A stretch of DNA of 64,000 nt from an uncultured Thermoplasmata archaeon (GTDB lineage: Archaea; Thermoplasmatota; Thermoplasmata; Lutacidiplasmatales; UBA184): positions 633,064 through 697,063 of the forward strand of contig CAVYTM010000001.1 of NCBI GenBank assembly GCA_963771555.1, given 5' to 3'. Positions 14,885 through 27,603 of this stretch are shown in pieces. How positions within the stretch are numbered: position 1 is the first letter of the stretch; each line of letters starts with the position of its first letter. Under the pieces are notes generated by a model. It was not told where the DNA came from. It ran no database searches and saw only the letters and a program-made list of their open reading frames with translations. Both the position numbers and the translations under genes were made by a program.

Positions 14885-17800
14885 CTAGGTCGGGGCAGGC
14901 GCGCCCCCGAAGGTGGCCCGGAATCGTTCGAGGTCCTCGGTCTTCATCAACGACGGGGCGAGGTAGACCCAGATCCGAGCGTCGTTCTCGCGCGCCAATC
15001 GGTCGAATTGCACGAGGCCGTTGAGGACGACATCGGCACCGTGGAGGCGGACCAGATACTCCACCCCTTCGAGGAAGAACGCCGTCACCTGTTCCTCGAG
15101 CAACTTCTTAGTGAGGAAGCTCCACGCACCCTCGAGATCCGAGGGACGAAGTGCCGGCCCCCGTCCGATGTTCGTCAACCAGAACACCTCGACCGGCCGC
15201 GACCCGACCCGGGCCCGGATCCGCTCAGGAGACTCGCGAACGACGCACACGCCGTGGTGGCCCGCGGACGCCGCTTCGAGAAATCCGCTGAGCGACGAGA
15301 CGAGCGAATCGCCGACCATGAGTTCGATCCCCGAGGGGGGAGCCGCGGGTTCCGGTTCGATCGGTTCGGAAAGAATGGTCGGAGGGACGGTGGTCCCCGC
15401 GTCGGTCGACGGCGTCGCGGCTTCCAAGGGCGCCGCCGGAGCGACTTCGCTCGCACCAAGTTCGGTTTCAAGGGGCGGCAACGGTCGGACCATCTCCGGC
15501 GGAGGAACCACCGGGGGACTAACTTCGGATTCCGGAGGGACCGGTGGGGCCGCCTCGATCGGCGAGAGGACCGAGGGAGAATCTCCTTCGAGGGGTTTGT
15601 CGGTCGAGGATTCTTCGGGCGATGGCAGCTCCTCGGGGATAGGCGGGATGGTTTCTCGGACCGGCTCGGGAGGTTCCTCCGGGGGTGGCGTCTCGCCGGG
15701 CGTCGACGGAGTCTCCAGGACGTTCGGAACCGAGGGTGTTTCAGGCGGGCTGAGGTCAGGGGGCGAGTCCCTCTCGGTCGGCTCGTTCATGACCGGTTCC
15801 GGAGAAGCCAGTTCGGGCGGGGGAGTCTCCAGTGTCGCGCGCACGGAGTCGACCGACTCGGGGGGAACCGGCTCGGGGACGACCAGCTCAGTCGGTAACG
15901 GTCCGGGCACAGCCGACTCCACCGGAGCCCGTTCGGGGGTCGCGGGTTCCGGGACGAGGGGTTCGGAATCGGCAGCGACCTGGTCCGAAGGAATGCTAGG
16001 TCCCTCCGTCCCCTCAACCTCCTGAGTGCCTTCGGGGGGCAGTGGGGGGATGGGAGCGGTCTCCTCCTCCGAGGGAGTCTCGAGTTCGGGCATCGGATTC
16101 TCGGGAGGTTCGGCCGGCTCGCTGGCCGGCGAGAGTTCCATTTCTGCGATCGAAGACGCCGGTGGGATGATGTCCGTTGGTCCCGGAGTTTCTTCCATCA
16201 ACGGAGCGGGGGCCGTCGATTCGGCCACCTCGGTCGGGGCCATTGGAACGGGAGCCTCGAGGTCCACCTCCGGGGATGGCATGACCGGTTCTGGAGGTGC
16301 ACTCGCGTCGGGGATCTCCCCCTCCGGAGCTGCGGCAAGGTCAGCTTCCTCGTGGACCTCCGGGCCCGCCACATCCACTGCCGGGGGGGCTGTCTCGATC
16401 GCGAGGTCATCTGCCTTCGGCGATGGGAGAGCGGTGGCACCGATCGGTTGCGCAATCTCGTTTCGAACGGGGGGAGGGACCGGTTCCGAGGAAGGGGGCG
16501 TTTCGGCCATCGCGGGAACGGGACTCTCGATTCGGAGGCCTTCTAGCGCCCCGAAGTCTCGACTCGCTTCCGTCGCGGGCTCGGCCACAGGGCGAGCCCG
16601 GAACTCCGGGGCGGCGGCCCGGATCGCCCTGACCGGCGGTGGGCGGGTCCGTCGGGTCGAAGCCGGCGGGATGATCCCGCCGAGCTTCGAGAACACGGCC
16701 TCGGCGACCGGCCCGCCGAAGCCCGGGAGTTCGGACACCGTCTCGAACGATGCATGGCGCAGGTCGTCGACGCTGTGGATGCCCTGCTCCCACGCACCCG
16801 CGACCTTCGACGGGCCGAGGAGGGGAACGCCGAGAATGTCATCCAGCTCCTGGCCCAGGGCTCGAACCGCCTCCTCGTGGGCCACGAATTTCTCGTCCGA
16901 GTAGTCGAATTCCTCGGGAATCGCTGCGGTCGACGTCGAGACCCGCTCCATCCGGACGCGCGCCCGTGGCCGCTTCTCGTGTCGGGGCGGGAGCGGAAGG
17001 TCGGGAATATGGATCCACCATCGGTCCCCCGTTCGTGTGCGTCCGGTCATCGAGTCCGGTGGGATCGCTCCCTCCGATTTCTCGACGACCCGGAGCTCCC
17101 GAAGTCCCAGGTAGCGGGCGATCGGCTCCGCGGCGGCCCGAAGCTCCGGAGCGAGGGGGTCGTGGGCGGTGACGAGAGCGACGCGCGTCGGCGTACCCGA
17201 AGTCGCGCCCGCCGAGCGGAGCCTCCGCTCGATGCGACGCACGAGCCAGAACGCGTCCCCGGAGAGCGGTGGAGCTCGCGCCCGTGCGAAATCCGCGCCG
17301 GCCGGAAGTTCGAGGTACAGCTCCCCGAGTGAGCACGGCACGGGAACGACCCGATCGGGCAGCGTGTCGGAGAGAGCCACCATGTTCGGGAAGATCCGAC
17401 GCGGCAGCCCATTGATCACGACCGTGAGCTCCTCGTGCCCCGCCGCCGTCTCCCACCGGCGCGGCGCCATCCGCGACAGCAGGTGGACGATCTGCGAAGC
17501 CTGGGAAGGGTAGGCCTTCTGGATCTCCGCCTCGATCGGGCGGATCGTGCGCTGGCGGCCGGTCCAAGGCTCGCGCGGCGACGCGACCTCGAATCGTTGG
17601 ACCCCGGCGAGGCGGGCGAGGGTCTCTTTCTCCGCCCGGAGCTTGTCGCCCACGTCGTCGGCCGAAACGACCAGAACGAGCGACGGTAGGACGGTTGTCC
17701 GAGGCACCGCGAGCGACCGCCGGAATCGATCGACACTGTGCAGCACCTTCCACCAACGGTCCCAGGCGGCGACCAATTCGTCGTTGAGCAGGGCCCGATC

Positions 17801-19930
17801 GAGACCGGCCATCGGTTGCTCGAAGACGCTGGTCCTTTCGGCAGCGAGGGCACGGTGCATCGCTTCCGAAGTGAACGGGAGGATGGGTGCGAGGACCTCC
17901 GAGAGGCCCCGTAGGAGATGGGCGAGCGTCCGGAGGGCCGCCCGCTTGGTGGTCGGGGTCCCCGCCAACGCGAGACGCGGGGCGACGAGCGCCCGGTACT
18001 CCACGAGGTCGTTATCGAGGAATCGGAACGCACGGCGGTGCACGAGCGCCGGCGCCCAGTGGTCGTAGTGAGCGAGCGCGAGGGTCCGGGTGCGTTCCCA
18101 TCGCGCGAGGATCGCGCGATCCTCTACCTCGAGGTCCCCGAGGAACCCTCCGATCGGCCGCGCGAACGCCGCCAGTATCGAGGGGTCGCACATCCCGAGC
18201 ACCTCCTGGGAGAGCACCCACCAGCGCCGGATCCGGTCGGATTCCTGACGACACCGCTCCGCGAAACTTCCCCGAGGGCAATCCGAGAGTCCGGTGCGGA
18301 TGAACGCCGCGCGAACGGCATCCGCGCCGAAGCTGACCACGAGCTCGGGAGCGTCGTTCGCCGCGACCGTCGGGATGACGGTCAGGTTCACCTCGCCGAC
18401 GAAGCCCTGCACTCCCGAGAGTGCGGCCAGGTGATTGACGAGCGAGGGGACGCGTCGGCGTTGCCCTACGTACAGATGGACCGAGTCCCCGTCGGGAAAG
18501 GGGTCAAAACGGGCCCAAGCCGAGAAGGCTCCGCCGCTCGAGGGAAGGAGTCGCCGCTGGATGATCGTCCGTTGACCGCCGCACGGGCAGGCCACGGGGC
18601 CGTCCGGCGCTGCGAGTCGATCGCATCGTGCGCATTCGAGCAGAGCCACTGCGGTGGGGTCCTCGCTGGTGAGCGCTTCGCTGACGGGCCACGGAGCGAC
18701 CTCCGCGAGGTCCGGGAGCGTCTCCTCGGGCAGAAGGCGAGAGAAGAGTTCTCGACGTTCGGGAGGAAGATGGGAAGGTTCGAGGCACCAGGCGCGACCG
18801 GGGGCCCACAGGAGCGACGTACCGCATATCGCGCACCGGGGAACTCCCCGCTTCACGCGCAATCGCGCGAGCAAGGCACCCGCTTCCGAAAGGTCGCGCA
18901 GGACGAATTCGTTGGCGCTCTCGAGGTCGAGGCCCGCGTACTTGTGGAGGAGCGTGAAGTCGAGCGTTCCCTTCGGGGTGACGAGGGGCCAACCGGTGAC
19001 ACCGGTCCGGGCCGCGATCCGGCCATCGGTAGGCCCGTGGCCGGGCACGAGGGGAACGATGCCGGTGCCGGTGTCGGTCACATCGGACGCCCCGAGGATG
19101 GTGCCGCCCGGGGCGGCCAGGTCTCCGCCGATCGGAAACTCATGGCGTAGGGGATAGGAATAGGCCGTTCCCTGGAACGCGCGCCCGGGATGCTCCTCGA
19201 CGATCTCGAGCGAAGCTTCCGGGATCCAGGTACGGAGACGGTCCAGGGACGATTTCGAGGTGAGGACCAACTCTCGGTCGTCCCGCCGTCGATAGCCCGC
19301 GATCACGTACGTGAGGTCCGGGTTCACGAGGAGCGCGCTCGTGCCGAGGAGCTTCCACGGGACATCGACCCAAACGAGGACGTTGACGGTCAGGTCCTTG
19401 AGCCGCACCGGAAAGCGTACGAGGAACGTGTCGCCCTCTCGTTCCTCGTAGATGATGCGTTCGGGACTTCGCGGCGACCCGCACGAGGGGCACATGCGGA
19501 AAGCACCGTCGCGGGTGACCAGAATCCCCTTCGCCGCGAGTCGGCCGACGATCGCCTGGACACCGGCGTGTCGGTCCTCCGAATCCCACGGAGTTGCGCC
19601 GTCTCCTCCGGTCCAGACGCCCAGCGCGGTCAGAAGCGCGGGTACGGCCGAGGTCGCCGTCGGTCCCGCTCCCGTGCCCTGGCGCAGGGTCGCCACCGCG
19701 CGCCGGCCGACGAGCTCGAGGTATCGGGCGTCGACGTCGGCGACCACCGCTCGGTGAGCTACCAGGGAAGGGAAGTCGCCCTGGGTCCACGCTCCGACAT
19801 ACTGCCGGACCGCGGGTCCGCTCGGGGGGCCGAGCACCCCACCCGCCGGGGGCAGCCGCCGTCCCCTCCAGAGGGTGAGGACGTCCCCTTCGACCGAATG
19901 TGCGTTGTAATCGGGAGGGACCGTGTCCAT
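14885..19930 (-). CDS. giant 1681-aa protein: degenerate isoleucyl-tRNA-synthetase-like core (~aa 1-960), HhH motif, ~430-aa Pro/Glu-rich acidic linker, C-terminal ~150-aa domain of unknown function
   Basis: Class-Ia aaRS-like segments: an N-terminal region aligning to the HIGH region but reading GDFPSLVAHRAVVADVDARY (HIGH lost); editing-domain-like LVPGHGPTDGRIAARTG; Zn-knuckle-like RCAICGTSLLWAPGRAWC and CARCD...CPCGG; a KMSKS-equivalent position reading LTVIPTVAANDAPELVVSFGADAVRAAF (KMSKS lost, the FGADAxR motif retained); anticodon-binding-like LDNDLVEYRALVAPRL...LSEVLAPILPFTSEAMHRAL. Then HhH (LLGPSKVAGAWEQGIHSVDDLRHASFETVSELPGFGGPVAEAV). PE-rich low-complexity region over nt ~16510-15220. 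C-terminal globular region FFLEGVEYLVRLHGADVVLNGLVQFDRLARENDARIWVYLAPSL. Confidence 0.7.
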   Translation of the reverse strand: MDTVPPDYNAHSVEGDVLTLWRGRRLPPAGGVLGPPSGPAVRQYVGAWTQGDFPSLVAHRAVVADVDARYLELVGRRAVATLRQGTGAGPTATSAVPALLTALGVWTGGDGATPWDSEDRHAGVQAIVGRLAAKGILVTRDGAFRMCPSCGSPRSPERIIYEEREGDTFLVRFPVRLKDLTVNVLVWVDVPWKLLGTSALLVNPDLTYVIAGYRRRDDRELVLTSKSSLDRLRTWIPEASLEIVEEHPGRAFQGTAYSYPLRHEFPIGGDLAAPGGTILGASDVTDTGTGIVPLVPGHGPTDGRIAARTGVTGWPLVTPKGTLDFTLLHKYAGLDLESANEFVLRDLSEAGALLARLRVKRGVPRCAICGTSLLWAPGRAWCLEPSHLPPERRELFSRLLPEETLPDLAEVAPWPVSEALTSEDPTAVALLECARCDRLAAPDGPVACPCGGQRTIIQRRLLPSSGGAFSAWARFDPFPDGDSVHLYVGQRRRVPSLVNHLAALSGVQGFVGEVNLTVIPTVAANDAPELVVSFGADAVRAAFIRTGLSDCPRGSFAERCRQESDRIRRWWVLSQEVLGMCDPSILAAFARPIGGFLGDLEVEDRAILARWERTRTLALAHYDHWAPALVHRRAFRFLDNDLVEYRALVAPRLALAGTPTTKRAALRTLAHLLRGLSEVLAPILPFTSEAMHRALAAERTSVFEQPMAGLDRALLNDELVAAWDRWWKVLHSVDRFRRSLAVPRTTVLPSLVLVVSADDVGDKLRAEKETLARLAGVQRFEVASPREPWTGRQRTIRPIEAEIQKAYPSQASQIVHLLSRMAPRRWETAAGHEELTVVINGLPRRIFPNMVALSDTLPDRVVPVPCSLGELYLELPAGADFARARAPPLSGDAFWLVRRIERRLRSAGATSGTPTRVALVTAHDPLAPELRAAAEPIARYLGLRELRVVEKSEGAIPPDSMTGRTRTGDRWWIHIPDLPLPPRHEKRPRARVRMERVSTSTAAIPEEFDYSDEKFVAHEEAVRALGQELDDILGVPLLGPSKVAGAWEQGIHSVDDLRHASFETVSELPGFGGPVAEAVFSKLGGIIPPASTRRTRPPPVRAIRAAAPEFRARPVAEPATEASRDFGALEGLRIESPVPAMAETPPSSEPVPPPVRNEIAQPIGATALPSPKADDLAIETAPPAVDVAGPEVHEEADLAAAPEGEIPDASAPPEPVMPSPEVDLEAPVPMAPTEVAESTAPAPLMEETPGPTDIIPPASSIAEMELSPASEPAEPPENPMPELETPSEEETAPIPPLPPEGTQEVEGTEGPSIPSDQVAADSEPLVPEPATPERAPVESAVPGPLPTELVVPEPVPPESVDSVRATLETPPPELASPEPVMNEPTERDSPPDLSPPETPSVPNVLETPSTPGETPPPEEPPEPVRETIPPIPEELPSPEESSTDKPLEGDSPSVLSPIEAAPPVPPESEVSPPVVPPPEMVRPLPPLETELGASEVAPAAPLEAATPSTDAGTTVPPTILSEPIEPEPAAPPSGIELMVGDSLVSSLSGFLEAASAGHHGVCVVRESPERIRARVGSRPVEVFWLTNIGRGPALRPSDLEGAWSFLTKKLLEEQVTAFFLEGVEYLVRLHGADVVLNGLVQFDRLARENDARIWVYLAPSLMKTEDLERFRATFGGAPAPT

Positions 19931-20070: not shown

Positions 20071-20457
20071 ATGGCCTGGAGCACGCAGGAAGTCCGTGAG
20101 CTCAAAGAGGGCCGTTACATGCTCATCGACGAGGAGCCCTGTCGAATTCTGAGCATCCAGACCTCCAAGCCAGGGAAACACGGCGAGGCGAAAGCGCGGA
20201 TCGACGCAGTCGGACTCTTCGATGGCTCCAAGCGCAGTGTCGTCTACCCCGTGAAGCACAAGGTCCAAGTGCCGTTGATCGGGAAGCGGCAGGCCCAGGT
20301 CCTCTCCATGACCGACGCCGAGGTCCAATTGATGGACCTCGAGTCCTACGAGACATTCAGCCTCCCGCTCGACGCCGAGACCAAGACGCAGGTCGCTCCG
20401 GGCGCCGAGGTCCAGTACCTCGACGCGATGGGAAAACGGCGGATTACCCGCACCTAG
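20071..20457 (+). CDS. eif5a: translation initiation factor 5A (aIF-5A)
   Basis: Hypusination-loop motif [13 protein letters not shown]; OB/SH3-like KOW N-domain; 128 aa. Confidence 0.9.
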
Positions 20458-20504
20458 ACCCATCCTCCGGGAGTCGCCGAGGAGAACGGCGCCCACCTCG
20501 CTTC

Positions 20505-20512
20505 ATTAATAA
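20505..20512 (+). promoter_or_regulatory. AT-rich box (ATTAATAA) followed by AGGAGG, between aIF-5A and the downstream giant helical-repeat gene
   Basis: The only AT-rich element in the 150-nt intergenic region. Could be box A for the downstream gene (TTG start at 20609). Confidence 0.3.
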
Positions 20513-20608
20513 GGAGGACCGGGCATGAAACCGGTGTCCGAAGCGTGCGAAAGCCGCGGTCGGGTCGGCTCAGTTTAGGGGGGTGGTCGCACGACAGGTC
20601 CGGGCGGA

Positions 20609-23600
20609 TTGGGGTCCGTATCGTCGTCCCGCCTCACCCGCATCCTCCAAGAAAAGGCCGAAGCGCTGAAGAAACAGCGGCAAACGGCCGAAGCGACGCT
20701 GAAGGATATCGACGATCAGATCGCGATGCTGGACCAGCTCGGCATCGCTCCGCCGGAAGCGCACGAACGCCAAGTGGCCCTGCGCGAGCTCGCCCGCCGC
20801 GCCGACTGGAACGGCGTGGAGAGTCAGTCCAAGGCCATGACCGATTACCTCTCGAAGACCGTTCCCACGACCATCCAGGAACGTCGAACCCGGACGGCCG
20901 AATCGGTGCGCCGGTTCTCCGGCCTCGGGCTCGTGGTCCCGGCGGAGGTCAACACGGAGCTCGCCGCGCTCGCCCATCCTCCTGAGGGCGAAGCGTGGTC
21001 GGCGACCGTGGCGCGGCTCGCTCACGTGGAAGAGGCGCTCCACACGTCGGAGATGGCCCACGTCAATGAGGTCCGGGAGCGAGCCCTCGCGGTCGCCACC
21101 TGGGCGGGCCTGACCGGGGCCCGTCGGAGCGAGTTCGAAAAGCGTCTCGACGACGCGCTGCTCCCCGTCAAGGAGGACCGTCTCGCCGAAGCGTTCGAGG
21201 GGGTGGACCGACTGCTCCGGACCGGCCTCCCCGAATCCGCCGGCCGCCGCCAGAAGGTCCAGGACGAGGGCACGCGGCTCGTCGCGGCGGCCAAGGAGTT
21301 CGGCGCCCCGACCTCGCATCTGGAAGCGGCGCTCACGGCGGGGGCCGACGCGGCTCCGGACCGGTGGCCCGACGTCGTCCCCACGGCCGAAGTCGCGATC
21401 CGGGAGGTGGGCGAAGCGCTCCGCGAGCGCTGCGTCCAGATCCTCGAGGCGCTGCGCACCTCCCTCGATTCGACCCGGGAGTACGGGTGGACCCCTCCTC
21501 CGCTCGCCTCGCCGTCGACGACGCCTTGTCCCGCATTCGAACTTCACCCGCACTCGAGATCGGTCCGATCTTCCTCGAGGCCCGTCGGGCCGCCGAGGAG
21601 CCGATCGTCACCGTCGTCGCCGGACTTCTCGACGAGGCCCGGCCCCGGATCGCGGACGCCCGTCGATTGGGCCGCGACCCCAGCGAAGTGTTCGCCGCGA
21701 TGAACCGGGCGCGCGAGGCGCTTCGCCTCAAGATCTACTCGGAGGCCTTCGCCGCGAGCCAAGAGGCCCTCGACAAGGTCAGCCGGCTCACGGACGAGCT
21801 CGACACCGCGCGCGACGAGCTCCAATCGCTCGAGGAGATGGCCGCTCGATTCCGAAAGACCGGCTTCTCGGTCGAACCGTTCGACCCCTCGCTCATCCGC
21901 ATCCGAGCTTCGCTCGACCGGGCCGAAGTGACGCAGGCCCGAGAACTGCTGAAGGACACGGTCGTCCACCTCGGGCGCGAAGCCCTCCAGTTCTTCGCCC
22001 AGCGCTGGGCGGGCCTCGACAAGGCCCGAGATTACGCGAGGGAACGCCAATTCCTCTCCCCCGACGCCGACCGGGACATGAACGAAGCACGCGAGCTTCT
22101 CGACAAGGGCGAGCTCGCGGAGAGCGCCGAGCGGATCTCCCGCGCCGAGACGGAGCTCCGCCGGGCGGCGACACCGTATGTGGCGCGCCGCGTGGAAGAG
22201 ATGGAGCAGGGACTTTCCGATATTCCGGACGAGGCGTTGGTCGCCCCGGTCCGCCGACTCCTCGCGGACGCGGACGTGACCCTACGGGTCAAGCAGGACC
22301 TGATGGGCTCGATCGAAAGCCTGCGCCGGGCCGAACGTGAGTTCGGCGCAGTCGTCGCGGCGCACGCCTCCGCGCTGGTCGAGATCCTCGAGGCCGAGCG
22401 CGAGGTGCTCGAGACGATGGGCGGGCCGAGCGACGAGATCCAGCGGCAGATCGACGAGGTCCAGCAGATCTTCAACATGGGGGACTTCGTCAAGGCGTCG
22501 CGGGCCTCGCAGGAGATCCGCACCCGCGCCCAGCAGCAGCAGCTCCTGAGGAGCGAGGAGTCGGTCTCGCACGCCAAGCTCTCGCTCGTCGAGCTCGAGA
22601 CGATGGGGTTCGACCTCACGAAGTTCCGTGGGCAGCTCGACGAAGCGCAGAGCGCGGCACGCGCGGCCCGATTCGCGGACGCCTACCGACTCGCGACGCG
22701 ACTCGAAGAGTCCGCGCTGCGGGCCCGAGCCGCCGGACAAGCGATCCTCGAGGGGATCGCGCGCACGCAGGAAACCCTTGGACGCCTTCGCGAAGGCGGG
22801 GTCGACCCGAATCCGTTCTACGAGCCCCTGCGCAACGTTCGCCTCGCGTTCCAGAGCCTGGACTTCGACCGGGCCCACGCGACGCTCGAAGAGGTCGAGC
22901 ACAAGCTCGGGGACGAGGCCGCGCGAGGCGAAACGACCCGGCTCCTCGGGGACGTGGAACACCTGATCGAGGACGGCCGCCGGCTCTCCTCCCCGATGGA
23001 ACCGTTCCAGGCCCGCCTGGAGCAGCTTCGCACCGAAGCCGCGACCGCTCCTCCCGAGGCGACCCGGACCGGCGCCCGGCTCCTCCACGAGGAGCTCAAC
23101 GCGATCATCCGGCCGATCCTGGACGAGAACCTTCGGGCCCTCGAACGCGACTTGGACATTGCGCGCTCCGCCGGGGTCGACCTCGACAAGATCCTCTTAC
23201 CGCTCGGTGAAGCGCGCCGAAGGATCGCCCTTCCGGTGCCGATCGGCGCGGCGGCGCTGCTCGATGCTGCGCGCGCGGAATTCGTGTCGACGAGGGGCTT
23301 CGTCGAACACGCCGAACGGGTGGCCAAGCGGGCCCGCGAAGCCCTGGCCGAAGCGGACCTTCTCCACGTCCACACTCCCTCGCTGCGAGAACAGATGGAA
23401 CGGATCGACAAGCTGCTCGCGGAGCGCCAGTACGCCCGCGTGGTCGAGCTCGGTGGTCCCCTCGAGCGGGAGCTGATCCAAGCGACCTACCAACACGTAT
23501 CGAAGACCTTGGCGGGGTTCCAGGCGACCGTGACCCGGCTGCGCAAGGAAGGCATCGACACTTCGCTCGCCGAGAATCTCCTCCATCGGGCCCGCATGGC

Positions 23601-25086
23601 GCTCGACGAAGGACGCCCCGTCGAGGCCCTTCAGCTCGCGGGACAGAGCGAAGGCGAGCTCGAACGAGCGGACCTCCAGCGGCGCATCGCGGAAGGCTCG
23701 CTCGCGGCCGCCGAGGCATCCATCGGACGGGCCACCGTGGACGGCATATTGTCTCCCGTCGCCACCGAAGAGCTCGCCGCTGCGAAGCTGGCGTTCCAGG
23801 GCCACGAGTACCCCCCGGTCCTCGAGCACTCCCTCCTCGCCTCCGACGCGCTTGGTATCGCGCGCGAGGGTCACCGCCGAGCTCGGGACGCCCTTGCGGC
23901 GGCGGAACGACAGATTCGCGAGGCGTCCGACGTGGGCGCCGACACCGAGCCCGCGAGCCTGCGAGCCGGCGAAGCTCGCCAGCAGATCGACGCAGGGCTC
24001 TATCCCGACGCGACCCGAGTTGCTCGGGAAGCCACCGAGGAGGCTCGCTGGGCGATCGAGAGGCTCTTCGCGGGCCCGATCGGTGAGCTGCGCCGGAAAC
24101 TCGATTCGGCCCGGCACGAGGGTCTCGGTGCCGAGGTCGACCCGATCGAGGCGATCCTCGGTGAGGCCGAGACCGCCCTCCGCGCCCGGGATTGGGGCCG
24201 CGTCAAGGAGGCCATCGCTCGGGGCGAGGCCGCTTGTGTCCGGATCATCGACGAGATCGTCGACGGCCGGTGGCGCGAAGTCGAGGCGGAGTATGTGCGC
24301 ACTTCCGACGGCCCGCCGGCCGAGGTCGACCGGAGGTCGGAGGTCCGAGTCCAGCTGACGGCGCTCCGCGACCACCACGACTACGGTGCCGCGCTCGTCC
24401 TCGTACGCTCCGAACTCGAGCTCGCCCGCCAACGCCGCCGCGAGGACATCGAGCGACAGATGGCCGAGTTCAAAGATCGCCTCTGGGTCGGTGAGCGACT
24501 CGCCCTCGACACGACCCCGGTCATGCAAACCTTCAGCGAAGCCCGGGTGGCCCTCGATGCCGGCCGTCCGGACGAGGCCGAGGCACTACTGGCCCGGGCG
24601 ACGAGCGCCCTCGAGCCGACGGTCCGCGAGCCGTACACCCGTCGGTGGCGCGAGCTTCAGACGGAGATCAATTTTGCCCAGGAGGGCCTGCACGTCAAGG
24701 TCGGGCCGATCCGGGAACGACTGCAGCAGGTCGAGGAGCTCGACCGTTCGGGCCAACTGCTCGACGCGGCCCGCCTCTTGCTCAAGACCGAGGAGGAGCT
24801 CAACCTGCGAAAGTCGCTCCATCGGGAGCTGATGAATCTCCACTACCTCATCGACGCCGCGCTCACGAAGGCCCACGAACTTCGGGTCGATACGTCCGAG
24901 GCACGGGCGCTGCTCGCGGAGTCCCTGAGGCTGCGAGAGACCGACTATTCCGCCGCGCTCGAGAAGGCGCGCGAGGCCCTACGCAAGTTGCAGAGCGCGG
25001 GTGTCGGAATGGTCGAGGGTGTCGTACCGCCGTCGCCGGCGGCGAACCCGTTCTGGCCTTTCCGACGGCCTCCGTCCGAGCCGTAA
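20609..25086 (+). CDS. very large (~1490 aa if joined) alpha-helical repeat protein of unknown function; frame interrupted at ~21485-21487
   Basis: ORFs 20609-21703 and 21364-25086 overlap by 340 nt in different frames. Adding one G after GAG-TAC-GGG (21485-87) gives the continuous ...LDSTREYGVDPSSARLAVDDALSRI.... The body has at least 13 ~80-aa helical modules anchored by A-L-x-x-G-[DR]-[YFW]-x-x-A (e.g. LRARDWGRVKEAIARGEAA, LDAGRPDEAEALLARATSA, LRETDYSAALEKAREAL). TTG start. Confidence 0.6.
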
Positions 25087-25090
25087 TCGC

Positions 25091-25549
25091 CTACGCGGAC
25101 GACAAGTAGCTGGTGCCGACGGGCGTCGGCGGAAGCCCCGCCGGCCCCCGCGGGGGTCCGAGAGGAAGGCGGTCGTACTCCACCGTGTGCTTGATACCTC
25201 TCCGACGGAGAAGGGTCGATACCTGCTCCGTGATCTGCACGACCTCCTGGCATCGGGCGGGCTTCGCAAAGTAGAACTCGGCGCGTCGTTCGTCCGCGAT
25301 CGGGAAGATGAGGCGAAGGCCAAACGCATCCTGGCGGTTGTATCCCACCGGCTTTCGGTTGCCCTTGAGGTCCCTCAGGTTCTCGTCGAGGAGAACCTCC
25401 GGGAGGAGAGGGTCCGACTCCTTGACGAACGGACGGTTCATTTCGACGACCCGTTTGTGGATCTCGGGGTAGACGCGGACGAGGTCGCGGTACGACCGTT
25501 TCGGGTCCAAGAGGATGTGCCCGCTGCGCGCCTTGACCGGGGGAGTCAC
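25091..25549 (-). CDS. hypothetical protein (152 aa)
   Basis: Protein-like composition (DLVRVYPEIHKRVVEMNRPFVKESDPLLPEVLLDENLRDLKGNRKPVGYNRQDAFGLRLIFPIADERRAEFYFAKPARCQEVVQITEQ). The antisense ORF 25001-25576 and the overlapping Arg-rich ORF 24945-25679 were judged less likely. Function not recognised. Confidence 0.35.
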   Translation of the reverse strand: MTPPVKARSGHILLDPKRSYRDLVRVYPEIHKRVVEMNRPFVKESDPLLPEVLLDENLRDLKGNRKPVGYNRQDAFGLRLIFPIADERRAEFYFAKPARCQEVVQITEQVSTLLRRRGIKHTVEYDRLPLGPPRGPAGLPPTPVGTSYLSSA

Positions 25550-25790
25550 GACCAGGAATCGAACCCGGGGTCTTAGGGGCTTCGGGGTCCTCCCGCGACG
25601 CCCCGAACCACGGAAGTGGGGTCGATTTGGCGGTCCCCCTTCGGTACGTGACGTTCTCGGACCTGCGGATGAAATCCACCGCTCGGATGGCGTTTGGTCA
25701 CTACTTTGGGGATGGGAGAGACGTGGGATCGCTAGTGGTTGGTCCCGGCGTCGAAAGGCTCAAAGAGGCTGCCCGCTACCGACTCCGGGC

Positions 25791-25892
25791 GCTCCCGTAG
25801 TCTAGTGGTCAAGGATAGAGGCCTCTCGAGCCTCTGACGCGGGTTCAAAACCGGCCGGCAACGACCGGCTGGGGAAACTCCCGCCGGGAGCA
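25791..25892 (+). tRNA. tRNA-Glu (anticodon CUC) with a ~29-nt non-canonical intron in the T-loop/T-stem junction
   Basis: Acceptor GCTCCCG/CGGGAGC plus discriminator A (archaeal tRNA-Glu-like GCTCC...GGAGCA). D-arm GTCT-AGTGGTCAA-GGAT. Anticodon arm GAGGC-CTCTCGA-GCCTC (U33, CUC, R37). T-stem GCGGG, loop TTCAAAA. The 3' T-stem CCCGC is contiguous with the 3' acceptor only after skipping ~25851-25879 (intron contains the hairpin GCCGG-CAACGA-CCGGC). No intron-less fold satisfies the acceptor pairing. Confidence 0.65.
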
Positions 25893-26040: not shown

Positions 26041-26775
26041 GTGGTAAACGATCCTCCCGCCGAGGAGCTCTTTCCGGGAGGCTTCGGCAAACCCTCCTCG
26101 GTCTTCATCTCGGGGAGCAGCCGCTCGTTGCTGAAGTGGTTCGCGTTCGCCTCGCTCGCACCGTACACCTCTCGGGTCTACTGGACCGACGTTCGCCTGC
26201 CGGGAGAGATTCTCGACCCTCTCGACCCGATGTCCATCCATGCCATTCCGGAAGAATCGGTGTACGTTCTCCTGCCCCGGGACCTTTCGCCGGACGACCA
26301 AGGAGCCCATCAGGCCGAAGTGGCCGCGGCCACCATGCTCCGGTCCGATGCCAGCGCGAACTCGATTGAGGGTCTCGTGGAGTTCCTCCGCATGCCGAGC
26401 CACGCCCAGAAGCTGATCTCGGCCACGGGCCGTCCGGGCGCACCCTCGATTCTTGTTACGGCCAATGCCCAGCGCCTCGCCTCGGCGTATCCGCAAGATC
26501 GCATTGCTCCGCTGATGCGCACTATGTTAGAATCCGGAACTTGCCAGGTCGCCCTTTGGGCCGAAGCCCCCACGACATTCACATCGATCTTCGATATCAT
26601 TCTCCACGTGGAAGGAAACGGTTCGGCGGACTGGCGCAACGCGACCGTGCGATGCGAGAAGGGAATCTCCGCCGGACCGCTCGCGTCCGGACGGACCACC
26701 CGCCTCTCCGAGATAGGGTCGATCTCCGCGATACTCGAGAAGTCGGTCCCGACCCCCCCGAGGGGCCCGGGGTAA
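26041..26775 (+). CDS. conserved hypothetical protein, paralog family member 2 (unknown function)
   Basis: 244 aa; paralog of 8826-9539 (shared motifs GSSRxLLxW, YWTDVRLxxExLDPLDP, and EFLxxPxHxQ further along). GTG start. Confidence 0.6.
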   Translation: MVNDPPAEELFPGGFGKPSSVFISGSSRSLLKWFAFASLAPYTSRVYWTDVRLPGEILDPLDPMSIHAIPEESVYVLLPRDLSPDDQGAHQAEVAAATMLRSDASANSIEGLVEFLRMPSHAQKLISATGRPGAPSILVTANAQRLASAYPQDRIAPLMRTMLESGTCQVALWAEAPTTFTSIFDIILHVEGNGSADWRNATVRCEKGISAGPLASGRTTRLSEIGSISAILEKSVPTPPRGPG

Positions 26776-27029
26776 CTTCCTCCGTCGCAACCCCGTACCA
26801 GCGTCGGTCCGACCCACGTCCCGCGCGATCTCACTCGCATCCCGATCTCGTACGGCTTCCACGGATAGGCCGCCATCGTCCGACCTTCGGGAGCGGGATT
26901 ACGTTCGCTGAGGTTCGTGGAAACGAGTCCGCGGCTCACTCGCGGACCGATGACATTCTCGAGAAGCGAATCGAGATTCCGGGCCGCCGCCTAAAATACT
27001 CCCGTCCGTACGCAATCCGCACGCAAGCT

Positions 27030-27603
27030 TTGTACTGCCCCCACTGCGGTGCCCCGACCAGCGCCGACGCGCAATTCTGCCCGTTCTGCGGTACCACCAT
27101 CCCGAGTGCCGCCCCCCCGCTCGCGTCGGCGGGTGGTGGAGGGCTGCCACCTCCCCTCTTCTCCGGCCCCGCGGCGGTCAACCCCCAACCAGCTCCGCTT
27201 CCTCGTCGCCGCCGTCGGCGTTTGGTCATCGCGGTCATCGTGGTCGTGGTGGTCCTGATCGTCGCCGTGGTCGCCGTCGATTTCTTCGAGATGCCACCGG
27301 TACAGGTCGCCTACGTCTTTGTTCTGGGCGCCCGACAATGTCTGCGGCTTGAACACGAACGCGATCGAGTTCCCCGGATACAACGGTTCGACCGGGGCCA
27401 GCCAGACGCTCGACTTCCTGATGCCGAACTACAATGACACGACCTGCACCGTCGTTTCGGCGACGACGAATTCGTCCGGATTCTCGCTTTCCGAAATTCA
27501 GGTGCCGCTCTCCATACCCGCTGGCGGCACCGTGTCGATGAACATCACGATCACTTCTCCCTCGTCGGATTTCTCGGGGAACATGAACCTCGTTCTCGGT
27601 TAG
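27030..27603 (+). CDS. membrane protein: N-terminal C4 zinc ribbon (CPHCG...CPFCG), Pro-rich spacer, one TM helix, glycosylated extracellular domain; apparent +1 frame break near 27318-27320
   Basis: In the 26541-27437 frame: YCPHCGAPTSADAQFCPFCGT, RRRRRR, then TM LVIAVIVVVVVLIVAVVAV. The extracellular Ig-like domain with NxS/T sequons (NGSTG, NDTT, NSSG, NITI) continues in ORF 27319-27603. Removing one T from the TTT run at 27318-20 yields ...VQVAYVLFWAPDNVCGL.... TTG start proposed at 27030. Confidence 0.45.

What the first reader, a model, noticed from the sequence alone, without database searches (positions are those of the whole stretch)
20609..25086. ~1500-aa alpha-helical repeat protein immediately downstream of aIF-5A
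After a single-base frame correction the two ORFs form one protein. Nearly all of it is ~80-aa helical modules, each anchored by A-L-x-x-G-[DR]-[YFW]-x-x-A (TPR-like signature), with at least 13 copies. There is no enzymatic motif and no TM segment. A giant cytoplasmic scaffold between aIF-5A and the pseudo-IleRS gene is unusual. Its TTG start and possible promoter box (20505-20512) suggest separate transcription from aIF-5A.
Basis: partly seen in the sequence, partly recalled or inferred. Interest (0 to 1): 0.6.

Follow-up and report, generated by a model that had tools for sequence, protein, structure and literature searches.

The report
Giant helical rod protein of Thermoplasmata
The two ORFs are one conserved, about 1,500-residue gene found only in uncultured Thermoplasmata archaea; it encodes 23 tandem 62-64-residue helical units predicted to form a long spectrin-like rod of unknown function, and in this window it is split by a single missing base.

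Summary
Restoring one base at 21485-21487 gives a 1492-aa protein collinear with more than 120 intact homologs of about 1493 aa. The closest genome, L022, has GGA where the window lacks a base. dN/dS against L022 is about 0.035 on both sides, so the break is recent or an assembly error.

The repeat is real, but its period is 62-64 aa, not about 80. There are 23 units plus an N-terminal cap helix. Each unit is a TPR-like hairpin of a 15-aa helix and a 40-aa helix.

AlphaFold (pLDDT 84 and 95.6) and Foldseek indicate short three-helix bundles joined by shared long helices. This resembles spectrin and EzrA in architecture but not in sequence. No Pfam, NCBIfam or PDB family matches.

The family is confined to uncultured Thermoplasmata/Thermoplasmatota. 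Its length stays near 1450-1620 aa down to 18% identity. Distant members end in a RING-like zinc finger. This clade instead has a Pro/Ala-rich linker and an invariant FWPFRRPP tail.

The true start is probably a conserved ACG at 20591, which is ATG or GTG in relatives. It lies 12 nt after a conserved 17-codon uORF. The best reading is a cytoplasmic ruler or tether, with partners unknown.

The parts
20503..20515 (+). Conserved AT-rich box TTCATTAATAAGG. It is a candidate TATA box; its 3' AAGGAGG is also Shine-Dalgarno-like for the uORF.
   Evidence: Column identity is about 0.9 across 69 non-redundant aIF5A-to-giant intergenic regions. It is also conserved in the 4-sequence alignment.
20525..20578 (+). 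Conserved 17-codon upstream ORF (MKPVSEACESRGRVGSV*).
   Evidence: The ATG is present in 59 of 69 relatives and the uORF is exactly 17 codons in 48 of those 59. The first five codons are conserved (M[KN][RP][VLM][PS]) and the rest varies. No conserved RNA structure explains the fixed length.
20577..20588 (+). Shine-Dalgarno-like AGGGGGGTGGTC overlapping the uORF stop codon.
   Evidence: Conserved block TTTAGG(G/A)GG. Its resemblance to the anti-SD complement AGGAGGTGATC rests on general knowledge.
20591..20593 (+). Probable true initiation codon, ACG, 11 codons before the invariant SSRL motif.
   Evidence: The homologous codon is ACG in 33 loci, ATG in at least 9 and GTG in 3. The downstream peptide [TS]-G-P-G-[GSN]-[LIVM]-G is conserved with synonymous third-position changes. 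16 of 53 loci have no ATG, GTG or TTG in the open frame before SSRL. Clades at 27-29% identity start MSG.GG with ATG.
20609..21486 (+). 5' part of the gene, from the first canonical start (TTG 20609) to the frameshift. It encodes residues 1-293: the N-cap helix and units U1-U4.
   Evidence: dN/dS against L022 is 0.036.
20609..20737 (+). N-terminal cap helix carrying the near-invariant SSRLTRILQEKAEALKK.
   Evidence: These columns are at least 90% conserved. The motif recurs as L.KQLEEKAKE in relatives at 18-25% identity.
21485..21487 (+). Site of the one-base deletion that splits the gene (TACGG-GTG).
   Evidence: It is the only frame-breaking indel in the 10.5 kb shared with L022.
21487..25086 (+). 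3' part of the gene, encoding residues 294-1492 and the stop codon: units U5-U23, the linker and the tail.
   Evidence: dN/dS against L022 is 0.034.
20738..25005 (+). Array of 23 tandem units of 57-66 aa, mostly 61-66 aa; the terminal unit U23 is truncated to 42 aa. Each unit is a loop (often G-[VI]-D), a helix of about 15 aa, a turn (G/D-[YFW]) and a helix of about 40 aa.
   Evidence: Unit table, AlphaFold helices, and periodicity.
22408..22605 (+). Unit U10, the most conserved unit (DEIQRQIDEVQQIFNMGDFVKASRASQEIRTRAQQQQLLRSEE...). It is a candidate partner-binding site.
   Evidence: Mean column identity is 0.94 against a family mean of about 0.70.
23224..23301 (+). Conserved irregular segment inside U14 (RRRIALPVPIGAAALLDAARAEFVSTRGFV). 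It is a candidate hinge or binding loop.
   Evidence: The sequence is near-invariant, yet pLDDT falls to 16-50 in the full model at residues 580-605. The P.GA motif is kept across the superfamily.
23647..23679 (+). SEGELERADLQ in U16, which holds three of the four residues invariant across the whole superfamily (E1019, L1023, Q1024).
   Evidence: Invariant columns E726, L730 and Q731 of alignment A6. U16 is also the best repeat-HMM hit, at 46 bits.
25006..25044 (+). Variable Pro/Ala-rich linker, predicted to be disordered.
   Evidence: Mean column identity is 0.44 and pLDDT is below 50.
25045..25083 (+). C-terminal short linear motif NPFWPFRRPPSEP.
   Evidence: W, P, F, R, R and P are invariant or at least 90% conserved. 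It occupies the position of the RING-like zinc finger plus basic tail seen in distant homologs.
20071..20457 (+). aIF5A gene, the conserved upstream neighbour.
   Evidence: Pfam IF5A-like_N and eIF-5a. It is adjacent in clades at 59-91%, 41% and 27-29% identity.
14885..19930 (-). 1681-aa IleRS-like protein: degenerate class-I aaRS core, anticodon-binding domain, HhH, a long Pro/Glu-rich linker and a C-terminal DUF835. It is divergent from aIF5A and part of the conserved block.
25091..25549 (-). 152-aa protein with no family match, convergent with the giant gene and 4 nt from its stop codon. It is very highly conserved.
   Evidence: 72-98% identity in relatives. No Pfam, NCBIfam or PDB match.

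Best explanation
This is a single housekeeping-type gene for a roughly 166-kDa cytoplasmic rod. The protein has an N-terminal conserved helix followed by 23 tandem 62-64-residue units. Each unit is a TPR-like hairpin whose second helix is extended to about 40 residues.

Inferred packing: the C-terminal half of one long helix, the next short helix and the N-terminal half of the next long helix pack as a short three-helix bundle. Consecutive bundles are therefore joined by continuous helices, as in spectrin and EzrA. If roughly straight, this gives a semi-rigid rod some tens of nanometres long, about 70-90 nm by helix arithmetic.

Inferred function: the rod acts as a spacer, ruler or tether. It holds a conserved N-terminal helix and a C-terminal docking module on a flexible linker at a fixed distance. 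Here the docking module is the FWPFRRPP motif; in distant relatives it is a RING-like zinc finger plus a basic tail. Highly conserved internal units (U6, U9, U10, U14, U16) would present binding sites for unknown partners.

What is shown: gene unity, the repeat, helicity, conservation, the length constraint and the synteny. What is inferred: the rod geometry, the tether role and possible membrane or partner docking of the tail.

The window copy is interrupted by a one-base deletion. This is most likely an assembly error or a very recent mutation.
For: Gene unity and selection:
- Intact collinear homologs exist.
- The deletion is unique to the window.
- dN/dS is 0.036 upstream and 0.034 downstream of the break, with dS 0.21.

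Repeat:
- Autocorrelation at lag 62 gives z = 6.5.
- hhalign self-alignment gives P = 6e-11.
- The repeat HMM finds 11 units of at least 5 bits, against 0.005 expected in shuffles, with anchors 62-64 residues apart.

Structure:
- The full-length C-terminal 1199 aa has pLDDT 84, with 19 pairs of a short (15-aa) and a long (40-aa) helix.
- A 213-aa fragment has pLDDT 95.6 and pTM 0.79.
- Foldseek local matches are isolated three-helix bundles: 4fzo/4fzp (probability 0.96-0.97, TM 0.68-0.71) and 4fm3 (probability 0.82).
- The best extended superposition is the spectrin-like EzrA 4uxv, with TMq 0.40.
- The spectrin/EzrA architecture is described in PMC4243239.

Ruler or tether reading:
- Length is held at about 1450-1620 aa in collinear relatives down to 18% identity.
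- Both termini are conserved while the pre-tail linker is variable and disordered.

Cytoplasmic location: no TM segment and no signal-like N-terminus.

Core gene of the lineage: at least 135 GTDB species carry it, within housekeeping neighbourhoods.
Against: - No coordinates could be inspected. The bundle packing is inferred from helix lengths and Foldseek hits, none of which is significant (all E > 0.09).
- The global shape is undetermined: pTM is 0.35 for the 1199-aa model.
- No partner, localisation or expression data exist.
- The tail's role is pure inference.
- The frameshift could be real, which would make the gene inactive in this strain.
Confidence: 0.5

Rival explanations
1. It is a TPR/Sel1/HEAT-type alpha-solenoid. 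Adjacent hairpins would stack side by side into a superhelix that wraps around ligands.
For: The anchor motif is TPR-like. P0152 has one unit passing TPR_2 (35.1 bits) and a summed ANAPC3 hit of 3.5e-11. JGI labels several homologs 'TPR repeat protein'. The top Foldseek hits by E-value include designed helical repeat proteins.
Against: The period is 62-64 aa, not 34-47. The second helix is about 40 residues long. The window protein's own TPR hit is E = 0.034, below threshold. TM-scores to the designed solenoids are only about 0.2, whereas three-helix bundles reach about 0.7 and EzrA 0.40.
Confidence: 0.12
2. It is a self-assembling cytoskeletal filament or lattice protein. It would be an analogue of intermediate filaments, crescentin or a spectrin network, and would dimerise or polymerise laterally or end to end to shape or stiffen the cell.
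For: Heptad periodicity is strong (lag 7, z = 5.7). The rod is long with conserved ends that could mediate head-to-tail contacts. It is universal within a lineage in which some cultured relatives lack a cell wall (general knowledge).
Against: There is no long uninterrupted coiled coil; helices are broken every 15 to 40 residues. Nothing tested oligomerisation. This is compatible with the main explanation rather than exclusive of it.
Confidence: 0.15
3. In this particular genome the gene is a genuine pseudogene, or a split gene producing a 293-aa N-terminal fragment and possibly a separately initiated C-terminal fragment.
For: The public assembly carries the same frameshift: ORF1 as called, 364 aa, is on record on a 716-kb contig. 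The closest relative has GGA at the site, so the loss is not a clean homopolymer slip.
Against: dN/dS is equally low on both sides (0.036 and 0.034) and there is no second lesion. All 79 other loci keep the frame. A 716-kb contig from soil or peat suggests long-read assembly, where single-base indels are the typical residual error (inference).
Confidence: 0.2
4. It is a remnant of an E3-ligase-like or zinc-finger signalling scaffold. The ancestral protein would have recruited substrates along the rod to a C-terminal RING domain, and this clade would keep the scaffold but use another effector.
For: 14 of 30 superfamily members carry a C4HC3 Prok-RING_1 domain, with best E = 3.6e-10. RING-bearing members have a conserved upstream partner with a coiled coil and zinc ribbons (E = 1e-41 between two lineages).
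Against: The window protein has only 2 cysteines and no finger. No E1, E2 or Ub-like genes were seen in any neighbourhood examined. RING-like treble clefs also serve non-ubiquitin roles (general knowledge).
Confidence: 0.1

Closest known systems
Spectrin-repeat rods (spectrin, alpha-actinin, dystrophin, nesprins; Pfam PF00435)
   Same: Both are tandem antiparallel three-helix bundles joined by a continuous helix. The result is a long rod that spaces terminal binding modules. The many-repeat architecture has conserved ends.
   Different: The repeat here is 62-64 aa, not about 106. There is no sequence or Pfam similarity. The turn carries a TPR-like G-x-[YFW]-x-x-A signature. There are no CH, EF or PH terminal domains. 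The lineage is archaeal.
EzrA, the bacterial spectrin-like FtsZ regulator (PDB 4uxv; PMC4243239)
   Same: It is a prokaryotic cytoplasmic chain of linked triple-helical bundles, and it gave the best extended Foldseek superposition (TMq 0.40 over 274 columns).
   Different: EzrA has five repeats of about 100 aa, an N-terminal TM anchor and a C-terminal four-helix bundle. The match is not significant (E = 3.6, rmsd 9.2 Å). There is no sequence similarity.
TPR-clan repeats (TPR_2, ANAPC3)
   Same: The helix-turn-helix core of each unit carries the TPR-like small/aromatic pattern. One unit of a distant homolog passes TPR_2.
   Different: Helix B is extended to about 40 residues, the period is nearly doubled, and no solenoid stacking is predicted. 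The window protein does not pass any TPR model.
Single three-helix-bundle proteins DUF4398 (PDB 4fm3), the 4fzo/4fzp scaffold and YfdX (PF10938)
   Same: One unit plus the preceding half-helix superposes on these bundles (TM 0.63-0.71). There are weak sub-threshold Pfam hits: YfdX at 20.1 bits spanning two units, and DUF4398 at E = 0.016 in P0152.
   Different: Those are stand-alone proteins of 80-150 aa, mostly periplasmic or lipoprotein. The hits are below the curated thresholds.
RING-bearing giant proteins of other Thermoplasmatota (e.g. UCG68287.1, MCL4325367.1; 'hypothetical protein')
   Same: They are true homologs: collinear over about 1150 residues with E = 1e-30 to 1e-57. They share the 62-63-aa repeat, the N-terminal motif and the overall length.
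   Different: They end in a C4HC3 Prok-RING_1 finger plus a basic ...KKxLALKxG tail. Some also have a CARDB insert. They are not next to aIF5A.

Membership tests
TPR repeat proteins (Pfam clan CL0020) | Pfam TPR-family HMM match above the gathering threshold | tested here: not met
   In the window protein TPR_4 scores E = 0.034, 15.2 bits against a cut-off of 27. It is met only for one unit of the distant homolog P0152 (TPR_2, 35.1 bits).
TPR repeat proteins (Pfam clan CL0020) | Tandem 34-residue period with two helices of about 14 residues each | tested here: not met
   The period is 62-64 aa and the helices are about 15 and 40 residues.
TPR repeat proteins (Pfam clan CL0020) | Side-by-side stacking of hairpins into a superhelix | tested here: inconclusive
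No natural TPR protein appears among the top 50 Foldseek hits, and designed solenoids reach only TM of about 0.2.
Spectrin repeat (PF00435) | Sequence match to the spectrin repeat model, with a repeat of about 106 aa | tested here: not met
   There is no Pfam hit and the period is 62-64 aa.
Spectrin repeat (PF00435) | Three-helix bundles connected by a continuous helix between neighbouring repeats | tested here: inconclusive
   The helix pattern (15 + 40 aa) and the local three-helix-bundle matches (TM 0.63-0.71) together with EzrA at TMq 0.40 fit this feature. All E-values exceed 0.09, and no coordinates were inspected.
EzrA (PF06160) | N-terminal TM anchor, five repeats of about 100 aa and a C-terminal four-helix bundle | tested here: not met
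   There is no TM segment, there are 23 units of about 63 aa, and there is no Pfam EzrA hit. The EzrA features are taken from PMC4243239.
Thermoplasmatota giant 62-aa-repeat superfamily (unnamed; defined here) | Collinear homology over more than 1000 residues, with length about 1450-1620 aa | tested here: met
   172 representative clusters have E below 1e-3. Full-length collinear matches extend down to 18% identity. The alignment is A6.
Thermoplasmatota giant 62-aa-repeat superfamily (unnamed; defined here) | C-terminal C4HC3 Prok-RING_1 zinc finger | tested here: not met
   It is present in 14 of 30 sampled members but absent here. The whole protein has 2 cysteines, none near the C-terminus. 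An FWPFRRPP tail takes its place.
YfdX (PF10938) | Pfam match above the gathering score (26.6 bits) | tested here: not met
   Scores are 18.4-20.1 bits, E = 0.0007-0.002.
MIT domain (three-helix, TPR-like; considered from memory) | Sequence or fold match to MIT domains | tested here: not met
   There is no Pfam MIT hit and no MIT structure among the Foldseek hits listed.

The most novel reading that the evidence does not exclude
The protein is an archaeal functional analogue of spectrin or nesprin. It would be a fixed-length rod of about 70-90 nm forming a sub-membrane skeleton or ruler in Thermoplasmata, docked through its C-terminal aromatic-basic motif (a RING/C1-like finger plus polybasic tail in other Thermoplasmatota). 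It would also be produced from a naturally ACG-initiated ORF, whose translation is coupled by termination-reinitiation to a conserved 17-codon uORF. That would be a mode of start-codon use not established in archaea.
Probability: 0.15. Interest if true: 0.8.

Novelty: new variant of a known kind. Interest (0 to 1): 0.5.

Why it matters
Thermoplasmata include wall-less archaea whose cell organisation is poorly understood, and no spectrin-like rod has been described in archaea. This uncharacterised family is one of the largest and most strongly constrained proteins of a whole uncultured soil and peat lineage (dN/dS about 0.035). Its length is conserved across deep divergence, and its ends exchange modules (RING finger against FWPFRRPP). 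Those are the hallmarks of a ruler or tether, so it gives a concrete candidate for archaeal cell-architecture studies.

Separately, the comparative evidence for an ACG start downstream of a conserved uORF offers a testable case of non-canonical initiation in archaea. It also shows that gene callers systematically mis-start or truncate this gene.

For annotation, ORF1 and ORF2 should be merged and flagged as a frameshift, not reported as two proteins.

Tried and rejected
- BLASTP self-comparison found no internal repeats. The repeats are too diverged, and profile methods were needed.
- Whole-model Foldseek against the PDB gave only noise, with matches to dynein and designed proteins.
- Profile searches of PDB sequences with A1 and A6 gave nothing significant.
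- A second word-based homolog search, with P0164 as query, added little.
- The iterated repeat HMM drifted toward low-GC relatives and shrank to the 43-aa core. It was used only with shuffle controls.
- Other giant proteins without Pfam matches near distant homologs (L009 1650 aa, L013 1553 aa) are not paralogs.
- The window's zinc-ribbon ORF at 26541-27437 is not a homolog of the partner of RING-bearing relatives; only generic CxxC similarity was found.
- The MIT-domain idea has no support.
- Readthrough or pyrrolysine decoding of the in-frame TAG between the uORF and the main ORF is rejected. The two frames coincide in the window but differ in most relatives: stop-to-start gaps are 28-33 nt, and L004 is out of frame.
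- A conserved leader RNA structure is rejected. RNAalifold finds none, and the single-sequence fold has z = +0.77.
- Literature searches found no description of this family.

Full report
**1. What is in the sequence**

The window is about 67% G+C. ORF1 (20609-21703) and ORF2 (21364-25086) overlap on the + strand in different frames. Inserting one base after GGG at 21485-21487 joins them into a 1492-aa ORF.

A search of 5.8 billion proteins returned more than 120 intact homologs of 1490-1515 aa. They are 59-91% identical over 100% of the merged query. All are unnamed or labelled 'hypothetical protein' from Thermoplasmata MAGs. Their sequences run straight through the junction...STREYGVDP[ST]....

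**2. The frameshift**

DNA alignments show that only the window lacks the third base of a Gly codon. The closest genome is L022 (SPRUCE 217), at 93.6% nucleotide identity over 10.5 kb. It has TACGGAGTGGAC where the window has TACGG-GTGGAC. This is the only frame-breaking indel in the shared 10.5 kb.

dN/dS against L022 is 0.036 upstream and 0.034 downstream of the break, with dS 0.21 in both parts. Both halves have therefore been kept as coding sequence with equal stringency. All 79 loci recovered from GTDB species genomes keep the frame.

The break is either very recent or an assembly error. ORF1 exactly as miscalled (364 aa) is on record from a 716,509-bp contig. A contig of that length suggests a long-read assembly, but I could not see the reads.

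**3. The repeat**

- BLASTP self-comparison finds nothing.
- Profile methods are clear. hhalign of the family alignment against itself gives register-shifted alignments over more than 1000 columns, with P about 6e-11 and offsets of 62, 125, 188 and 312.
- Profile autocorrelation peaks at lag 62 (z = 6.5) and lag 64 (z = 4.1). Lag 7 gives 5.7 and lag 80 only 3.1.
- A repeat HMM was built by iteration over the superfamily. Its consensus is GVDVSEAEELLEEAKEALEKGDYEEALELAKEAEEELEKAKEQ. It finds 11 units of at least 5 bits in the window protein, against 0.005 expected per shuffled sequence, with anchors 62-64 residues apart or multiples of that.

Combining these anchors with the predicted helices gives an N-terminal cap helix (residues 1-43), 23 units, a 13-aa variable linker and a 13-aa tail.

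**4. Structure**

AlphaFold2 with a 68-sequence alignment gave pLDDT 84 and pTM 0.35 for residues 294-1492. The model has 19 consecutive pairs of a helix of about 15 residues and a helix of about 40 residues. A 213-aa piece gave pLDDT 95.6 and pTM 0.79 with the same pattern.

Foldseek against the PDB found no significant match. The high-probability local hits are stand-alone three-helix bundles:
- 4fzo/4fzp: probability 0.96-0.97, TM 0.68-0.71 over 70-74 columns.
- 4fm3 (DUF4398): probability 0.82.

The best extended superposition is the spectrin-like EzrA 4uxv, with TMq 0.40.

From this I infer the following packing. The C-terminal half of one long helix, the next short helix and the N-terminal half of the next long helix form a bundle. 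Successive bundles then share a continuous helix, as in spectrin and EzrA (PMC4243239), but with a repeat about 40% shorter. Helix arithmetic suggests about 3-4 nm per unit, or roughly 70-90 nm if the rod is straight. This figure is an estimate, because I had no coordinates and the global pTM is low.

One unit is irregular. In U14, residues 873-898 are nearly invariant in sequence but have pLDDT of 16-50. This segment may be a hinge or a binding loop.

**5. What it is not**

- No Pfam family passes threshold: YfdX scores 18-20 bits against a cut-off of 26.6, and TPR_4 has E = 0.034.
- NCBIfam gives no hit.
- PDB sequence searches give nothing significant.
- There is no TM segment (maximum KD19 of 1.23).
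- The protein is 166 kDa with pI 5.3 and has only two cysteines.

**6. Family and distribution**

An exhaustive HMMER scan of 1.84 billion cluster representatives found 172 clusters with E below 1e-3. Many are collinear full-length proteins of 1450-1620 aa at only 18-29% identity. Every member that carries a name comes from uncultured Thermoplasmata or Thermoplasmatota. At least 135 GTDB species genomes carry a close relative, and almost all of those listed are soil, peat or sediment MAGs.

Low-GC distant members show the repeat much more plainly. They also end in a C4HC3 zinc finger matching Prok-RING_1. It occurs in 14 of 30 sampled members, with best E = 3.6e-10, and is often followed by a basic ...KKxLALKxG tail.

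The window's clade has no finger. It has instead a variable Pro/Ala-rich linker and an invariant FWPFRRPP motif.

The N-terminal motif SSRLTRILQEKAEALKK corresponds to L.KQLEEKAKE in the distant members. Across the whole superfamily the invariant residues are R369 in U6 and E1019, L1023 and Q1024 in the SEGELERxxLQ of U16. Within the close family U10 is the most conserved unit, at 0.94 mean column identity.

These features fit a spacer or tether better than a generic scaffold:
- conserved length;
- conserved ends;
- a disordered pre-terminal linker;
- swapping of the terminal module;
- a few very conserved internal units.

This functional reading is an inference.

**7. Genomic context**

The order in the window is:
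- IleRS-like protein with DUF835 (14885-19930, - strand);
- aIF5A (20071-20457, + strand);
- the giant gene (+ strand);
- a 152-aa gene (25091-25549, - strand);
- tRNA-Glu (25790-25866).

The four-gene block recurs in essentially every related locus whose contig is long enough. The aIF5A-giant pair persists at 41% identity (L010). It also persists at 27-29% identity (L011 and L093), where the other neighbours change to EF1A/S10 and SMC-ScpAB. The pair is lost in RING-bearing lineages. In two of those lineages a conserved gene encoding a coiled coil plus zinc ribbons sits immediately upstream instead. The adjacency to aIF5A is thus old, but its meaning is unknown.

**8. Start of the gene**

The aIF5A-to-giant gap is 142-167 nt in 65 of 73 loci. 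It contains these conserved elements:
- the box TT[CG]ATTAATAAGG;
- an ATG opening a uORF that is exactly 17 codons in 48 of 59 cases;
- an SD-like TAGG(G/A)GG that overlaps the uORF stop codon.

Eleven codons before the invariant SSRL motif there is a conserved codon. It is ACG in 33 loci including the window (20591), ATG in at least 9 and GTG in 3. The peptide after it is conserved with synonymous changes. 16 of 53 loci have no ATG, GTG or TTG anywhere in the open frame before SSRL. More distant clades begin MSG.GG with ATG.

The coding region therefore most likely starts at ACG 20591 and not at TTG 20609. The codon at the TTG-equivalent position is CTC, ATC, GTC or ATA in many relatives.

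The uORF stop codon is 12 nt from the ACG. That is within the range where termination-reinitiation still works in Haloferax: 40-60% at 13-14 nt and none at 22-23 nt (PMC10666635).

No conserved RNA structure explains the leader. Readthrough of the TAG is excluded because the frames differ among relatives.

Whether the AT-rich box is a promoter is open. It is conserved, but no oligo-T terminator follows aIF5A, and its 3' half could serve as an SD for the uORF.

**9. Verdict**

This is a real, single, strongly constrained gene of an undescribed lineage-specific family. Architecturally it is a new short-period variant of the connected three-helix-bundle (spectrin-like) rod, built from TPR-like hairpins. 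Its function is unknown. A fixed-length cytoplasmic tether or ruler is the best-supported reading, at a confidence of about 0.5. The window copy carries a one-base deletion that needs read-level checking.

Noticed in passing
window 20591-20593 (with 20525-20578 and 20577-20588): The conserved codon at the homologous start position is ACG in 33 relatives and ATG or GTG in at least 12. 16 of 53 relatives have no canonical start before the invariant N-terminal motif. A conserved 17-codon uORF ends 12 nt upstream, inside an SD-like motif. This suggests non-canonical ACG initiation, possibly by termination-reinitiation. Gene callers mis-start this gene; for example P0109 is called 69 codons short.
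   Followed up: partly
window 14885-19930 (-): A 1681-aa IleRS-like protein. The ileS model hits only the CP1/editing region and the anticodon-binding domain, at 110 bits against a cut-off of 621. The HIGH-motif region looks degenerate. These domains are followed by HhH, a Pro/Glu-rich linker of about 450 aa and a C-terminal DUF835. It is conserved divergently from aIF5A in essentially all relatives and is probably a pseudo-synthetase with a new role.
   Followed up: partly
window 25091-25549 (-): A 152-aa protein with no Pfam, NCBIfam or PDB match. It is 72-98% identical across relatives, which makes it more conserved than the giant gene. It is convergent with the giant gene, and their stop codons are only 4 nt apart.
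   Followed up: partly
L012:6603-7958 and L013:6916-7983 (+): In two distant RING-bearing lineages, the gene immediately upstream of the giant homolog encodes a homologous protein (E = 1e-41) with a long coiled coil and 2-3 repeated CPKCG...CYACG zinc ribbons. It may be an operon partner. No homolog was found in the window.
   Followed up: partly
L011:12679-17398 and L093:12379-17622 (-): In the clade at 27-29% identity, the giant gene's 3' end abuts or overlaps the 3' end of a convergent SMC-ScpA-ScpB operon.
   Followed up: no
L009:13400-14300 approx. (P0155 residues ~1380-1470), also P0161: Some RING-bearing homologs carry a CARDB-like beta-sandwich inserted between the helical array and the zinc finger (4 of 30 members, best E = 2.3e-6).
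   Followed up: no
L026 and L077: Two different contigs of one MAG (JOPF047) each carry a full-length copy at 67-68% identity to the window. This is either a paralog pair or a mixed bin.
   Followed up: no
window 26541-27437 (+): The mechanical ORF contains a zinc ribbon (residues 165-187) followed by an Arg-rich stretch and a hydrophobic TM-like segment. The long N-terminal part looks non-coding, so the true start is probably much later.
   Followed up: no
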